64,000 nucleotides of DNA, taken from the IMG/VR virus record IMGVR_UViG_2541047712_000002; one strand, written 5' to 3'. The position numbers were made by a program. This document shows, in pieces, positions 54,001 through 60,000 of this stretch. Origin of the DNA: a virus. Lineage: Duplodnaviria > Heunggongvirae > Uroviricota > Caudoviricetes. Within the stretch, counting starts at the first letter, position 1. The number at the start of each line of letters is the position of its first letter.

Positions 54001-57000
54001 CGCTACGGGCAACTTAAGGAGAACGAAACCATTACTATCCAAGCGAAACGATTCACTGCCACCATCACAAGAACACCTAGTCGTAGAGTGGCCTTGATCA
54101 AAAAAGTCACAACCGAATAAAAATACAATGATAAGTATTTACTTACTTATCTTTTGTGTATAAGATGACTTTGTTTTCGTTGAGACGCGACTGTTTGAAC
54201 TTAAATACAAGTGCAAACGAAGAAGTCTATCTGGCAGTAGCCTAATAAGCCAAACACCAGCGAGGTCAGTTTCCAGCCTCGTTACCGAAATGGGACACAC
54301 TGAGCGAGTGTGATTGCAGAACGCAGGAGGGAACATTCATGTTCCCTCCGATGAAGTAACAGAATGGGCGGTTGGTATATTTTCAACTCCATATGACTCC
54401 CGGATTCTTAGCCACTGACCGCCCATCCTGTTACGTCATTTGTTCAATTATGTCGTTTATACTGGGTTAAAAAGCGGCGACGTAGCCCGGCTGGTATGGT
54501 TAGCCAGCACACAACGTTGAGGCCATTACATTTTTATCAATTCTAAGGTTCTATTCACAGAGATACCGGCGAGCGTTGATATGTAACATGTTGGGCAAAC
54601 ATTCAATCGGAGTAGTGGCCTCAACGTTGTGAAGACAGGATTGTTGTGTAGGTTTAACCACTGTTGCCATTGGTGCCTGTTTTCACAACAAATGATTCCA
54701 TACATCACATTGTATAAATTACAAAGTAGGTGCTGTCCTCAGAAACATCATCTACTTAAAGATTTTGCCTTCTACTATTGAGCGAAGTCGAAAGCGTCTG
54801 GCACTAACGAAAAGTGCAAGTAGCGGTGCGTTTCCTGGCAGAAACTAAACCGTCGCGATTGGCACTGTTGAGTAATAAATACTGGCAGTGCTGAATTGAT
54901 GGTGTAGCTCAGCGGTAGAGCAGTTGGCTGTTAACCAACTGGTCGGTGGTTCGAATCCACCCACCATCGCCAATTTAGGGGAGTTAGTCCGTAGAGGTAG
55001 CGGTGTAGACTGTAAATCTACTGTCATGGCGACTCGGGTGGTTCGACTCCATCACTCCCCACCAAATTGCCGGTTTAGCTCAGCGGGAGAGCGCGAGAGC
55101 CAAAGCATCGTTTCTACTTCGGTAGACAGCCTTGCTGGTCAAATGACAACGATTCGATGTTAGGCCAGAGGTCAGCGGTTCGAGTCCGTTAACCGGCACC
55201 AATACAACGATAAGATCATTACGGTTAATCGTCGTTCATGTGCACAATGACTGGTCGAAAGGTAGTGATCTTACCGTTGTGGTGGATTCGCAGACTGATG
55301 CGATAGCTTTCTTGGATGTTAGGGAAATGCGGCCGCAAATCTTCCCTTTCGCGAGCGGTGATCGTCCGTAGTCCTAATTGGCTGCACCGTATGCCGGAGA
55401 TTCAGTACCGGCCACCACAACGGCCGGAGAGTAGGGAGCATGGTGCTCAAGCGGTCTTGAAAACCGTCCCATTGCGCAAGCGATGATGGTTCGATTCCAT
55501 TACTCTCCGCCAGACACAGCGTTGAGCGGTTTGGCCTTTTAATCACCCAGATTAAGACTCCGCTAACATAAACCAGACCGCTCAACGCTGTGATAGACAA
55601 TTACGGCAGACGTTCTTAACCATTGCTTCTTAGCATCGTAGCAACACTTTTTTTCAGCGCAAATAATTAAAGGGGCTTCGGCCCCTTTTTGCTTAGTTGA
55701 AATCCAAAGAATCAAGTTCTGCTTTAAATTTATCGACAATTTTCTCAACTTCAACAACAATTTCATCAATCACCTTTTCTTTGTGTTGATTAGAGTTGAG
55801 TGCTAAATAGGCATTTTCTAACTTATACCTAGACAGACTATTTTTAATCTCATCAGCGAATCTATTGGTGAAACCATTGGTTAACAGAATACTTCTCTCT
55901 CGGGGGGAAATAGGATACTTATCGTTGAGTTTTATTAGCCTCTTTAAATGTTTTTCATCCTTGATCACCCTCACTTTATTACCTGCGATTCTAAGCTCCC
56001 AGCCTATAAAACCAGGTAACAAAGAGTTGAACTCAGCTACTTTATCGGCTGCATTTTCCATCCTCAGCTCAATGCTGTTTCGCATATGCATAGGTAGGTC
56101 ATTAAATCTTTGAAGCAAATGTTGTCGGCAGGGGTTGTTGTAAGACCACAGAATTGCGAACGTAGCCCTTAAATGACGGTATCTTGAATCGATTTTAGGG
56201 GGCTCACGACCTCGAACCATTTCTTCAACATAAAACTCTACATCTTTTCGGTATTCGTTATCAAATATCACAGCAGCATAAGAGTCCAAATAATGAACTT
56301 TCGATATTGCTTCTTCAAAAAAAAGTTGGCCTTCGAAGAAGTTATACTTGCTTAGCAGGCTGTAAAGTCTCTTTGCGTCATAGGTTTTATTAGTGTCAAT
56401 ATTAAGGCCGAATGTAGCTATCAGCAGGCTTACATTAGGACTAATGCTGTTGCGCAGCTGTTCTATGTAAGCTCTCTTTTCATAATCGGCTGATGACGGC
56501 GAATAGAAGTCTTTATCTAAATAATCAAGAATTAAAACTATGTGGTTAATATATTTAATGTAAACGGAGTTTTTGGTTACATGGTAATAAATAGCCTTGA
56601 TGAGATTCATTCCCAGTTTTGCATTAAGTTCCCTATCATCCTGCAAGGTCTTGTTAACATCCTCAAGTAATCTATTATGCTGTTCAAGTAATATGCCGTA
56701 CCATTCCTTAAAAGAGGCTTTTTTCATTTCAAGGAGTGAAGCTGCCGTCAGCCTAGTGGCCCTCATTGCTGCCTTTGCACTATGCCTTGCCTCGTAAGCG
56801 GCCCATGCTGTGGCGAAAAATGCAAGTGAAGTGGCAAGTGTACCTATGACCTCTACGTTTTCCTTGACGGTATCCCAGAAAATAATCATCACTGTCCCAA
56901 GTATGAGGATTAACAAAACAGGCATTTTATCAGTGTCTTTGGTTAATTTTGAAACTGAATGATACCTAATCGACCATACCATTTCAGCTAGTTTAAAGCT

Positions 57001-60000
57001 GTCTTGCCGGTTCTGGTGCGTCAACCTCACAAAGCCATTTCTGCTTAGTAACCAAACACATTAAATAGGTAATGACTCACTTATTCATTTTAGCTATAGT
57101 CACGACACTTACTCACTTGAAAGGACTCAATATGGGAAACAAACGTAAACAGGCGCGTCGCGCAGCTCGTCAGGCAGTGAAGTCAAAGCCACGCATCCAC
57201 GGCTACGAAATTGACACAATCATCGTTAATGAACAGCAGTTGCACGAGGTGAAGTGATGAAAGTCGTTATCTACGGACGAGATAACTGCTCATACTGCAA
57301 ACGTGCGGTCGAGCTGGCGAAGCAACTAAAGGGACATGGCTACGGTGATTATGAGTACATCGACATCACTACTGCCGGTATCGATAAGGAAAAACTTAGC
57401 GAAATTATTGGTAAACCGGTAGAGACTATCCCCCAGGTATTGATCGATGGCCAACCGATTGGCGGATACACAGAACTTGCAGCTTACATAAATTTGTTAT
57501 GACTAGTATGGCCGCTAGCCACACCATCCTTGATTAAAAAAAACACAATCGTTATAAGGAGCAATCTTCATTGTTGATAAGACGACTTAACTATACTTAT
57601 CCTATACCTCAGGTGTTATGTTATAACATTTGATACTTGGGGAAGATTATGTTACTTAAAGCATTAAGGATTGGATTGATCGCAGGCATCTTTTGTACGT
57701 GTACAACGTATGTCGCTGGAAAAAACAGTAGATGTTAAATTCCCGTCTGAAAAAGATAAAGTAGCATACTCGGACGTCATAAAAGGTTTTGACTATAAAA
57801 CTTATAAATTTCGCGCGAAGAAGGGACAACACCTTCAGATATTACTATCAAATGAATGGAGTGAACATATCCATATCTCTTTGGGCCAAGCATCGAAGAT
57901 TAGATTGTTCTTGATAGAAGCTCACCTTGTCTAAATGAGCAAGCGAAATATATGCTTCATGAATCAGGCGTATATTAATTACGTGTAAGACAAACACGAA
58001 ATAATGCAAGGGAAGATTAAAAGTAAAAATACAATATTGAACGTAAAATACACTAAGAGTTAGTTATACAGAAAATTCAACTAAGCCGGGCAGTACTGAC
58101 GTTGTGTCAACCTTCCATTTTCATGGAAGGTTTTTTTTTGCTTGCGATATAACAATAGCAAACACTCATAATCTAAAAGTATTGAGTCTACATAAAACTC
58201 ACGCCTTAACCTCATGACAATCAGGCAAAAATAACAATAGAAACTATTTAAAATTTTATTTTTTTTATATTTAATCTAAACATTATTTTATCTTAACCCT
58301 TTGTTTTTTAAGAAATTCATGCAGATCACAAATATTTGAAAAACAATATTATTACCTGGCTTGTGTGTTTTTTATTGATTTTAAACACCACGATTATTGT
58401 CTTTGTCAGAATAATAGTCTAGGTTATTTGGCTTGTGCAGATCTTTTATCTATAATCGTTGTTTGATGGGTTTATATTTTTCAGTAAACTTCAAAAAAAA
58501 ACACGAATGTCTAACTAGGTTATATTCAGTTCATTTTTGTCAAATTATTAAATTATCACCTGGCTAAACTGATAACATTTACCTACTCAGGTGGCTGAAA
58601 TGAGGATTTCGTTAAATGAAAAAATAAAGGGAGAACGGTTTAATACGCCGGGAAACATGTCAAGGGAGCACTTTAACTTACTAATTGAGCTATCACCCAT
58701 AAGTAGCGAGAAGGTAAGATTAGCTTTATACGATTTTTTCGTTGACGGAGTAACACGTAAGGAAGCGTGCACCAGACACAATGTTTCACAAGGATATTTT
58801 TCTATTAGTGTAAGAAAATTCATTCAGGTTAATGATAGAGTAACAAAGGCTGTTAAATATTACTTGCCGAAATACTTAATTGTATAGCTCTGTTTTTTGA
58901 TAATGGAGGTGGTTAAACAATAAAAACCGTAATATAAAACACATTCAGTTCTTAATATTTTATTTTTCCATTTAATTTTATTTAAAGATAGGTTAGATAT
59001 GAAAAAGCTGACTCTTATTGCAACGTTAATGGCATCTGCTATGTCATTCTCATCTCACGCTGCTACAACATCAGCAAGCGTGAATATTACCGGCTCGATC
59101 GTTCCATCTGCATGTGCAATTAGCGCCAGTGCAAATGGAGGTACTATTGACTTTGGGAAAATCCTTTCATCAGAACTTGGTGAGCAGGGTGTTACACGTA
59201 AGGCAAAGAACGATACTCTTACTATTACGTGTGATAAAGATACTACGGCCGTAGTAAAAGTTAGTGGAAGCAATGGTGTAGATGGCAACACTTATAATTC
59301 AGATAAAGACTTCGTTAAAATTGCTGTGCAATTTACCGACGTAAATGTCACTGGCGGTAATGCTACAAATAAATTCCTCGTATCTAACGCAGCATCTGTA
59401 GATTTAGATAATCTGACGGCAGCAGGTTTTACCACCGCAGCAGGAAATAAACCGTTATTCCCGTTCAATGGAAACTATCTCGCCGTTGCTGATACAAACA
59501 ATAGCGTTGGTACATTTAAGACATTGACTGCAAATTATAGCGTCAGCGCGGTAGTGCAAAACGCTTCTGCTAAACGAGCTCTTACCCAAGGTGAACAAAC
59601 CTTCGGTGGCGCAGTTACATTCGAACTGAACTATCTATAACCCATAATTAATAAACAGTAACGGAGTAACCTCCGTTACTGTTATAAAAAACATGATCAA
59701 AAGAATATTTCTACCTATATTAATGAGCATTCCATGTTCAGTATATGCTTTAGGAATGCAACCTGAAACAACCGTTTTAATATTTAACGAAGAGAAGAAT
59801 GAAGCTTCTATTTCTGTTAAGAATACAAACAGTGTGCCAAGCCTACTTCAAACAAAAATTGTGGATATAGGGGAAGCTGAAAATGTTCTAGTATTATCTT
59901 CACCATCAATAGTTAAAATAGAACCAGGAGAGTCTCAAATAGTAAGATTCTTTTTGAAAAAGAATTCTGATTTTGATACTCAGATACTTAAGAGAGTAAG

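What the first reader, a model, noticed from the sequence alone, without database searches (positions are those of the whole stretch)
55693..57030. Large AT-rich membrane-anchored protein of unknown function between the tRNA array and the glutaredoxin gene
445-aa ORF on the opposite strand to everything around it, low GC, N-terminal TM helices then a long helical soluble domain, and a strong bidirectional terminator at its 3' end. Single-gene inserts with this architecture near tRNA genes are often abortive-infection or other defence proteins. I cannot assign a family from sequence alone.
Basis: inference. Interest (0 to 1): 0.5.

Follow-up and report, generated by a model that had tools for sequence, protein, structure and literature searches.

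The report
AbiC/AbiP-like defence gene on phage-plasmid
The ORF is a real, membrane-anchored protein and a very distant relative of the lactococcal AbiC/AbiP abortive-infection proteins; it sits in a swap-prone cargo slot of an E. coli phage-plasmid, so it is most likely an untested anti-phage gene of a known but mechanistically unsolved kind.

Summary
There is a lone minus-strand gene between a tRNA array and grxA, with 38.6% GC against 46% for the phage backbone, two N-terminal TM helices, a mostly helical body and a hairpin terminator. The true start is probably ATG 56925, giving 410 aa rather than 445 aa.

The window is an SSU5/pHCM2-like phage-plasmid of E. coli. The protein itself hits nothing in Pfam, PADLOC, NCBIfam or PDB, and only PHROG 18168 (unknown function).

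A profile of its homologues finds 138 clusters. Of 105 scanned, 78 carry Pfam putAbiC (PF16872), 12 hit PADLOC AbiC and 10 hit AbiP. A profile-profile comparison with Gram-positive AbiC-like proteins gives 95% probability (E 2e-8) over residues 1-177. Residues ~178-410 are specific to this lineage and evolve faster.

In near-identical phage-plasmids the same slot (55691 to ~57250) holds other cargo: two paralogues only 31-38% identical, an unrelated 302-aa gene, AbiH, or no cargo gene. Relatives sit at moron sites of lambdoid and P2-like prophages, one next to a PARIS-like gene pair.

Best reading: a divergent AbiC/P-type single-gene defence protein expressed from the resident element. Function and mechanism are inferred, not shown. 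New member of a known kind; moderate interest.

The parts
55693..56925 (-). Coding sequence, 410 aa plus stop (most likely product). Start ATG 56925, stop TAA 55693-55695.
   Evidence: ORF. Start from the paralogue and orthologue comparison. dN/dS 0.13-0.33. 100% identical protein on E. coli plasmid pDETEC87.
56926..57030 (-). In-frame 35-codon upstream extension of the maximal ORF (GTG 57030). Probably the untranslated promoter and leader region, not protein.
   Evidence: Upstream frames are closed in paralogues. A promoter-like site lies inside it.
56959..56987 (-). Promoter-like site: CTGAAA, 17-nt spacer, TATCAT. The -10 element and the following GTTTCAAAATTAAC are conserved even upstream of the 61%-identical Pectobacterium chromosomal copy.
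   Evidence: A consensus match plus conservation; not shown to be functional.
56872..56922 (-). TM helix 1 (residues 2-18 of the 410-aa product, PVLLILILGTVMIIFWD). Absent in the most distant subfamily (P0066-P0072).
   Evidence: Kyte-Doolittle 19-mer means up to 2.25. Alignment.
56794..56850 (-). TM helix 2 (residues 26-44, VIGTLATSLAFFATAWAAY). Lies in the most conserved part of the protein.
   Evidence: 83-87% mean identity to the query across the full-length homologues of the 24-sequence alignment A1, for residues 21-60.
56686..56793 (-). Basic juxtamembrane helix (residues 45-80, EARHSAKAAMRATRLTAASLLEMKKASFKEWYGILL). Residues 45-120 have pI 9.6, which implies a cytoplasmic side.
   Evidence: Invariant columns. 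pI. Long helix 50-96 in the AF2 model.
56395..56568 (-). putAbiC-like core (residues ~120-177, IKYINHIVLILDYLDKDFY...YIEQLRNSISPNVSLLIATFGL). This is the stretch that aligns to Pfam PF16872 in homologues and to lactococcal AbiC-like proteins.
   Evidence: Near-invariant Y125, L133, Y153, R158, I161 and A170 across 105 relatives.
55696..56394 (-). Lineage-specific, faster-evolving C-terminal domain (residues 178-410), helical with four short strands. Proposed specificity or sensor module (inference).
   Evidence: Not aligned to Gram-positive AbiC-like proteins. Identity to the query 35-60% per 20-residue block, against 83-87% for residues 21-60. dN/dS about twice that of the N-terminal part. 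AF2.
55669..55688 (.). GC-rich hairpin terminator, 5 nt after the stop codon. It is backbone sequence that also follows the tRNA array on the + strand, and it marks the left edge of the cargo slot.
55691..57250 (.). Cargo slot. Homology to sister phage-plasmids and to phage Cyrano stops at 55690-55693 and resumes at 57238-57266.
   Evidence: BLAST breakpoints. Alternative occupants.
57072..57257 (+). 61-aa ORF that is a deletion scar: the phoH upstream/5' remnant fused to the last codons of gp49 (…QQLHEVK*). Not part of the defence gene but part of the slot's history.
   Evidence: homology of 57063-57226 to the phoH 5' region of L008, and a C-terminal match to Enterobacter gp49. No Pfam hit.

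Best explanation
The gene encodes a divergent enterobacterial member of the AbiC/AbiP (Pfam putAbiC) group of single-gene, membrane-anchored abortive-infection proteins. It is carried as exchangeable cargo (a 'moron') by an SSU5-like phage-plasmid.

Proposed working (inferred): it is transcribed from its own promoter on the strand opposite to the phage genes while the element resides in the cell. The protein inserts with two N-terminal TM helices and a cytoplasmic body. The conserved TM2, basic helix and putAbiC core (residues ~20-177) form the shared working part of the family. The fast-evolving C-terminal domain (178-410) sets which invading phage is recognised. On infection by a competing phage, a phage protein activates it. 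For AbiP this is the major tail protein; AbiC lowers capsid-protein production. Activation then blocks late phage development, possibly through non-specific RNA/ssDNA binding as shown for AbiP. This protects the clonal population and the resident phage-plasmid.

Shown here: gene reality, topology signals, remote homology, the hotspot and allelic diversity. Inferred: defence phenotype, trigger, effector chemistry and domain roles.
For: Homology.
- phmmer links the query to P0073 at E 2e-17. P0073, P0065 and P0060 pass the Pfam putAbiC gathering score with 31.2, 25.9 and 23.1 bits against a cutoff of 22.
- The family profile finds 138 representative clusters. Of 105 scanned, 78 carry putAbiC (best E 4.8e-17), 12 hit PADLOC AbiC and 10 hit AbiP.
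- hhalign of the broad alignment against six Gram-positive AbiC-like proteins, including L. lactis p275A, gives 95.4% probability and E 1.9e-8 over query residues 1-177.

Architecture. Two TM helices as in AbiC (review PMC13064643). Single gene with its own promoter-like site and terminator.

Dispensable cargo. Phage Cyrano, 97.6% identical over the shared flanking DNA, lacks it.

Hotspot. The same slot holds two paralogues only 31-38% identical to the query, with E 1e-97 and 1e-103 to the family profile. It also holds an unrelated 302-aa gene and AbiH in Klebsiella, all with common breakpoints.

Context of relatives.
- Lambdoid prophage between the replication genes and the RusA/antiterminator-Q late-regulation genes, on the opposite strand.
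- P2-like prophage between gpV and gpS.
- A putAbiC protein next to the P2-type integrase and a PARIS-like AAA_15/21 + DUF4276 pair.
- IncF plasmids beside ParE and RES toxins.

Selection. Purifying overall (dN/dS 0.13-0.33) with a faster C-terminal half.
Against: - The query itself matches no curated model in Pfam, PADLOC or NCBIfam.
- The narrow family profile against the lactococcal AbiC-like protein is not significant on its own (P 0.024, first run, E 0.0066 with 5.7% probability).
- Only about 177 of 410 residues are covered by the AbiC link.
- I could not obtain the experimentally characterised AbiC (pTN20) or AbiP sequences. The Gram-positive proxies are annotated or reported AbiC-like, and the best lactococcal proxy (pUCCL635A) did not score against the profile.
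- No fold match supports any biochemical activity.
- AbiC/P mechanisms are themselves unknown, and AbiC and AbiP differ from each other (PMC13064643).
- A 38%-identical AbiC-like protein was inactive in a lactococcal screen (PMC11381338).
- No phenotype data exist for this family.
Confidence: 0.6

Rival explanations
1. Superinfection-exclusion protein. A prophage-expressed inner-membrane protein blocks DNA entry, or an early membrane step, of incoming phages. This would be exclusion at the envelope rather than an abortive mechanism after entry.
For: N-terminal TM anchor with extreme conservation of TM2 and the juxtamembrane helix. Moron-type placement in temperate elements. No enzymatic fold detected.
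Against: The homology is to AbiC/P, which act after DNA entry (PMC13064643). The bulk of the protein (about 365 aa) is predicted cytoplasmic and basic next to the membrane. It also occurs on non-phage IncF plasmids.
Confidence: 0.12
2. Addiction, toxin or competition module. A membrane-active toxin stabilises the phage-plasmid or plasmid (post-segregational killing) or antagonises other mobile elements, rather than acting against phages.
For: Distant members lie beside ParE and RES toxin genes near plasmid replicons. YafO toxin genes lie close to the slot in Klebsiella and Enterobacter phage-plasmids.
Against: There is no partner antitoxin ORF in the slot. The only other ORF is a phoH/gp49 deletion scar. 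The gene is absent from otherwise near-identical, viable elements. AbiP is non-toxic without its trigger (PMC13064643).
Confidence: 0.1
3. Accessory gene with a non-defence role for the element or host, for example a lysis-timing or lysogenic-conversion membrane protein linked to the neighbouring fimbrial cargo. Alternatively, a decaying passenger with no current function.
For: The function is untested. It is rare: 17 of 5426 complete E. coli genomes, all on plasmids. AT-rich cargo including a fimbrial operon lies nearby.
Against: Purifying selection. The same gene sits in the same slot in elements that lack the fimbrial operon. It recurs at moron sites of unrelated phage types. The homology points to Abi proteins.
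Confidence: 0.13

Closest known systems
AbiC (Prf) of Lactococcus lactis pTN20, and AbiC-like proteins (Pfam PF16872 putAbiC; PADLOC PDLC02343)
   Same: Single-gene system on a mobile element. Two N-terminal TM helices followed by a helical body. The ~55-80-residue putAbiC core motif, Y-x7-L...Y-x4-R-x2-I...A, aligns between the two. No assignable fold or enzymatic motif (PMC13064643).
   Different: The query is below threshold for the Pfam and PADLOC models. Only residues 1-177 align. It carries a ~230-residue C-terminal domain that did not align to the lactococcal AbiC-like proteins compared here. It is Gram-negative and phage-plasmid-borne. No phenotype is known, whereas AbiC lowers major capsid protein production in P335 phages.
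AbiP of Lactococcus lactis (PADLOC PDLC02351), grouped with AbiC as 'AbiC/P' in PMC13064643
   Same: Membrane-anchored single protein. 10 of 105 relatives of the query hit the AbiP model. The region next to the membrane is basic, compatible with AbiP's nucleic-acid binding.
   Different: AbiP has one TM helix and, from my memory of the literature (not checked here), is much shorter. RNA/ssDNA binding, the block of the early-to-late transcription switch and triggering by the major tail protein are shown only for AbiP. None of these was tested here.
Enterobacterial 'putative phage abortive infection protein' (PF16872-positive, 246-500 aa) in P2-like prophage hotspots
   Same: Same superfamily. 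Same lifestyle as prophage cargo, next to PARIS-like and other defence genes.
   Different: These are recognised by Pfam and NCBI naming, whereas the query's subfamily (PHROG 18168) is annotated only as hypothetical. Identity to the query is 13-25%. None has been characterised experimentally as far as the searched literature shows.
AbiH (alternative occupant of the same slot in Klebsiella SSU5-like phage-plasmids)
   Same: Same genomic slot and presumably the same role as element-borne single-gene defence. AbiH is reported in SSU5-group elements (bioRxiv 10.1101/2025.09.12.675607).
   Different: No sequence relationship (E 0.43 and 0.015 to the family profiles). No TM helices. Encoded on the + strand.

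Membership tests
Pfam PF16872 putAbiC / AbiC/P group | Direct match of the protein to the PF16872 HMM above the gathering score (22 bits) | tested here: not met
   No putAbiC hit for the query at E<=1 or E<=0.1. The paralogue at the same slot (L009) scores 21.7 bits, just under the cutoff.
Pfam PF16872 putAbiC / AbiC/P group | Homology to family members established through intermediates or profile-profile comparison | tested here: met
   The query hits P0073 by phmmer at E 2e-17, and P0073 scores 31.2 bits on PF16872. 78 of 105 profile-found relatives are PF16872-positive. hhalign against Gram-positive AbiC-like proteins gives 95.4% probability, E 1.9e-8, residues 1-177.
Pfam PF16872 putAbiC / AbiC/P group | Match to the PADLOC AbiC or AbiP models | tested here: not met
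   0 hits for the query and for the 24 close members. 12 (AbiC) and 10 (AbiP) of 105 distant relatives hit weakly, best E 3.5e-7 and 8.2e-7.
Pfam PF16872 putAbiC / AbiC/P group | N-terminal membrane anchor (AbiC two TM helices, AbiP one) | tested here: met
   Two hydrophobic segments at residues 2-18 and 26-44 of the 410-aa product. Some distant members have only the second. Based on hydropathy only; no dedicated TM predictor was available.
Pfam PF16872 putAbiC / AbiC/P group | Single-gene, self-contained unit on a mobile element | tested here: met
   Own promoter-like site and terminator, opposite strand, no partner ORF. Found on phage-plasmids, prophages and plasmids.
Pfam PF16872 putAbiC / AbiC/P group | Abortive-infection phenotype: reduced plaquing or burst, infected cells do not yield phage; for AbiC, reduced capsid protein; for AbiP, blocked replication and transcription switch | not testable with these tools
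   Needs phage challenge experiments. No published test of this subfamily was found.
Pfam PF16872 putAbiC / AbiC/P group | Structural superposition of the extra-membrane domain on AbiC/AbiP models (the criterion used in PMC13064643) | not tested
   The AlphaFold database library was unavailable. The structure tool does not accept outside sequences. PDB and BFVD searches gave only generic helical matches.
AbiH (as annotated in RefSeq for the Klebsiella slot occupant) | Sequence similarity to AbiH-family proteins | tested here: not met
   The Klebsiella slot occupant AbiH does not match the family profiles. No Pfam AbiH hit for the query.
Abi_C domain (HEPN C-terminal domain of AbiJ/SadR; a name look-alike, not AbiC) | Match to the Abi_C HEPN domain with the R-phi-x(3-5)-H motif | tested here: not met
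   No such Pfam hit. PMC13590631 describes that unrelated family.

The most novel reading that the evidence does not exclude
The tRNA-to-grxA interval of SSU5-like phage-plasmids may be a dedicated, previously undescribed defence hotspot. In it, deeply diverged AbiC/P-like paralogues (31-38% identity) and unrelated single-gene systems are swapped between fixed breakpoints. The long-form AbiC/P proteins would be modular: a conserved membrane-proximal effector and an exchangeable C-terminal sensor tuned to different phage structural proteins. This would give an E. coli-tractable route to the unsolved mechanism of AbiC/AbiP. It would also reveal a defence family that current detection tools (PADLOC, and by implication DefenseFinder) miss.
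Probability: 0.35. Interest if true: 0.55.

Novelty: new member of a known kind. Interest (0 to 1): 0.4.

Why it matters

This subfamily would give a relative in genetically tractable hosts with rich phage collections (E. coli, Klebsiella, Salmonella). Three natural, highly diverged alleles sit in one slot, which suits domain-swap and trigger-mapping experiments.

It also shows that curated defence-finding models miss this subfamily. Surveys of phage-plasmids therefore probably under-count their defence cargo: the 2025 survey lists AbiH, PrrC, PD-T4-3 and others for the SSU5 group but not AbiC (10.1101/2025.09.12.675607).

If the gene has no anti-phage activity, it is simply one more hypothetical moron.

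Tried and rejected
- Direct family assignment failed. Pfam, PADLOC and NCBIfam gave nothing for the query. PHROG 18168 matched at E 1e-176 but has no known function.
- PDB by sequence, single protein and profile, gave nothing meaningful.
- tblastn against 50,697 phage records found no match. The closest 'phage' records (CMS-2020a, Cyrano) lack the gene.
- A second word-indexed search with the broad alignment did not reach lactococcal AbiC; only 8000 candidates were scored.
- I could not retrieve authentic AbiC (pTN20) or AbiP sequences. As proxies I used the p275A protein reported as AbiC-like (PMC6458302), its 38%-identical lactococcal relative on pUCCL635A, and Enterococcus and Bacillus 'putative phage abortive infection' proteins.
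- The narrow profile (A1) against these proxies was not significant. Only the broad profile (A2) was.
- The 445-aa GTG start was rejected in favour of ATG 56925.
- The 'Abi_C' HEPN domain of AbiJ/SadR was considered because of the name and rejected as unrelated.
- The idea that the 61-aa upstream ORF is a partner gene or antitoxin was rejected. It is a phoH/gp49 deletion scar.

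
Full report
**1. What the window is**

The region around the finding is 98-99% identical to Escherichia phages CMS-2020a and Cyrano, and more distantly similar to Salmonella phage SSU5. The ORF's product is 100% identical to a hypothetical protein on the 113-kb IncFIB plasmid pDETEC87 of E. coli and on two other plasmids. The window is therefore an SSU5/pHCM2-type phage-plasmid. The local gene order is helicase, primase, DNA ligase, small ORFs, a tRNA array, this ORF on the opposite strand, then grxA.

**2. The observation**

- The ORF is at 55693-57030 on the minus strand.
- Its neighbours are all on the plus strand.
- tRNA-Asn, tRNA-Tyr and tRNA-Ser lie at 54898-55512.
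- GC is 38.6% against 46.3% for the phage backbone.
- There are two hydrophobic segments near the N-terminus.
- The AlphaFold model is confident (mean pLDDT 83.4, pTM 0.73) and almost entirely helical, with four short strands.
- An 8-bp GC-rich hairpin at 55669-55688 starts 5 nt after the stop. It folds at -15 kcal/mol on the minus strand and -17.6 kcal/mol on the plus strand, with z-scores of about -2.5 to -2.7.

The hairpin belongs to the backbone, because homology to phage Cyrano, which lacks the gene, runs through it to 55690. It therefore most likely also terminates the tRNA array. The 'bidirectional' reading is reasonable, although only the minus strand meets the scan's T-run rule.

One correction concerns the start. 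Two paralogues at the same slot begin with the same 'MP + hydrophobic' N-terminus. They have in-frame stops 3 and 13 codons upstream and no internal Met. The orthologues' upstream frames are of variable length. The start is therefore most likely ATG 56925, giving 410 aa, and not GTG 57030.

A promoter-like site (CTGAAA, 17-nt spacer, TATCAT; 56987-56959) lies inside the discarded extension. Its -10 element is conserved even upstream of a 61%-identical chromosomal copy in Pectobacterium.

The gene is under purifying selection, with dN/dS of 0.13-0.33 against six orthologues. It is a real gene.

**3. Family**

The query alone matches nothing in Pfam, PADLOC, NCBIfam or the PDB. It matches only PHROG 18168, which has no known function.

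A database search found 73 homologues, mostly on 105-115-kb elements of Escherichia, Enterobacter, Klebsiella, Salmonella and Cronobacter. Two of them carried a precomputed PF16872 (putAbiC) hit. On rescanning, P0073, P0065 and P0060 pass the Pfam gathering score with 31.2, 25.9 and 23.1 bits against a cutoff of 22, through residues ~120-200.

An exhaustive profile search found 138 representative clusters. Of 105 of these scanned individually:
- 78 carry putAbiC, best E 4.8e-17;
- 12 match PADLOC AbiC;
- 10 match PADLOC AbiP.

I then collected six Gram-positive proteins: the L. lactis p275A protein reported as AbiC-like in PMC6458302, a 38%-identical lactococcal relative, three enterococcal proteins and one from Bacillus.
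- The narrow profile did not reach them significantly.
- The broad alignment anchored on the query did. hhalign gave 95.4% probability and E 1.9e-8, aligning query residues 1-177 (the TM helices, the juxtamembrane helix and the putAbiC core) to residues 1-247 of the lactococcal protein.

The conclusion is that the N-terminal ~180 residues are homologous to the AbiC/P superfamily. The remaining ~230 residues did not align to the Gram-positive AbiC-like proteins I compared. They are shared only with other long-form (420-500 aa) relatives, which, where a source names them, are from Enterobacterales. Several of these NCBI already calls 'putative phage abortive infection protein'.

**4. The slot is a cargo hotspot**

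Compared with sister elements whose flanks are 94-99% identical, homology always stops at 55690-55693 and resumes at 57238-57266. Between these breakpoints the occupants are:

| Element | Occupant of the slot |
|---|---|
| Window and pDETEC87 | This gene |
| pEC00678_4 | 432-aa paralogue on the same strand, 31% identical, E 1e-97 to the family profile |
| AR_0104 plasmid | 420-aa paralogue on the same strand, 38% identical, E 1e-103 |
| pAVS0225-A | Unrelated 302-aa protein containing an R-x4-H motif |
| Klebsiella elements | AbiH-family gene |
| Phage Cyrano | Only the backbone gene gp49 |

Orthologues 74-80% identical occupy the same position in Salmonella, Enterobacter and Klebsiella elements, next to phoH, gp49 and grxA.

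The gene is rare in E. coli. It occurs in 17 of 5426 complete genomes, always on plasmids of ~108-116 kb.

Within the family, residues 21-60 are 83-87% conserved. The C-terminal half is at 35-60% per 20-residue block, with about twice the dN/dS of the N-terminal part.

**5. Context of relatives elsewhere**

- A 46%-identical homologue lies alone on the opposite strand in a lambdoid prophage of Cedecea, between the replication genes and the RusA/Q region.
- A 59%-identical one lies in a P2-like prophage between gpV and gpS.
- A 246-aa putAbiC protein lies next to the integrase of P2-like prophages, beside an AAA_15/21 + DUF4276 pair. That is the PARIS architecture as I know it from the literature.
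- 38-39%-identical forms lie on IncF plasmids beside ParE and RES toxins.
- One copy is chromosomal in Pectobacterium, near an AAA_15/21 ATPase.

These are the typical places of phage-borne and plasmid-borne defence cargo.

**6. Mechanism**

What is shown:
- A membrane-anchor signal and a basic segment after TM2 (pI 9.6 for residues 45-120), which by the positive-inside rule puts the body in the cytoplasm.
- A conserved core with near-invariant H83, Y125, Y153 and R158 across 105 relatives.
- A faster-evolving C-terminal domain.
- A self-contained transcription unit.

What is inferred from the family (PMC13064643): AbiP needs both its TM anchor and a sequence-independent RNA/ssDNA-binding domain, is harmless until the phage major tail protein triggers it, and prevents the early-to-late switch. 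AbiC lowers capsid protein production without affecting DNA replication.

On this basis I commit to the following model. The protein is a resident-element-expressed, trigger-activated, membrane-tethered protein. Its conserved N-terminal part executes the block of late phage development, and its C-terminal domain determines which phage is sensed. I give about 0.6 to the defence role and much less to any particular effector chemistry.

Rivals are superinfection exclusion at the membrane, an addiction or toxin role, and a non-defence accessory role. None is excluded without experiments.

**7. Comparison and novelty**

By transitive and profile-profile homology the gene belongs to the AbiC/P (putAbiC) superfamily. 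It fails the direct Pfam and PADLOC thresholds, carries a large C-terminal domain not matched in the AbiC-like proteins compared, and is annotated everywhere as hypothetical.

I found no paper that tests or mentions this subfamily or PF16872. A 2025 survey of phage-plasmids lists other defence systems for the SSU5 group but not AbiC, consistent with the tools missing it.

It is best filed as a new, divergent member of a known but mechanistically unsolved kind. The hotspot with three deeply diverged alleles is the most useful new element.

**8. Limits**

- There are no phenotype data.
- The AlphaFold database library was offline.
- TM prediction rests on hydropathy only.
- The hotspot rests on about ten inspected elements and not on a census.

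Noticed in passing
window 55069-55205 (+): A tRNA-like gene sits where sister elements have an intact 76-nt tRNA-Thr(TGT). It has the same acceptor stem and T arm, but the anticodon arm is replaced or interrupted by about 60 extra nt (55095-55167, which fold at -20 kcal/mol). ARAGORN (with intron search) and Rfam do not call it. It is either a disrupted tRNA-Thr or a tRNA with an insert. tRNA-Tyr (54978-55064) is present here but absent in phage Cyrano.
   Followed up: partly
window 57072-57257 (+): The 61-aa ORF just upstream of grxA is a deletion scar. Its 5' part and upstream DNA match the phoH promoter/5' region of Klebsiella elements, and its last residues (…QQLHEVK*) match the C-terminus of gp49 (N4 Gp49/Sf6 gene 66 family). 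phoH and gp49 were therefore lost in this lineage.
   Followed up: yes
window 58591-63265 (+): A complete chaperone-usher fimbrial operon lies in very AT-rich DNA (30-38% GC): PapB/FocB-type regulator, DUF1120 subunit, chaperone, usher and a further subunit. It is carried as cargo on the phage-plasmid, directly after grxA, where phage Cyrano has a hypothetical gene, an integrase and a repressor.
   Followed up: partly
L011 2433-3341 (plasmid pAVS0225-A, NZ_CP124493.1), same slot as the finding: A 302-aa protein with no Pfam or PADLOC hit occupies the slot. It contains an R-x4-H motif (LRHTIVH) reminiscent of HEPN RNases, so it is another candidate single-gene defence protein.
   Followed up: partly
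window 56866-56965 (-) and loci L018-L021 around 2960-3060: The 40 nt upstream of the start and the first 20 codons are identical or nearly identical among orthologues that are otherwise only 74-80% identical in protein. This fits a conserved promoter, leader and TM1 block, or recombination at the 5' end of the cassette.
   Followed up: no
L025 9860-12723 (metagenome contig, P2-like prophage): A putAbiC gene lies beside the P2-type integrase. The next two genes are an AAA_15/21 ATPase plus a DUF4276 protein, a pair with PARIS-like architecture. Several defence genes are thus stacked at one prophage end.
   Followed up: no
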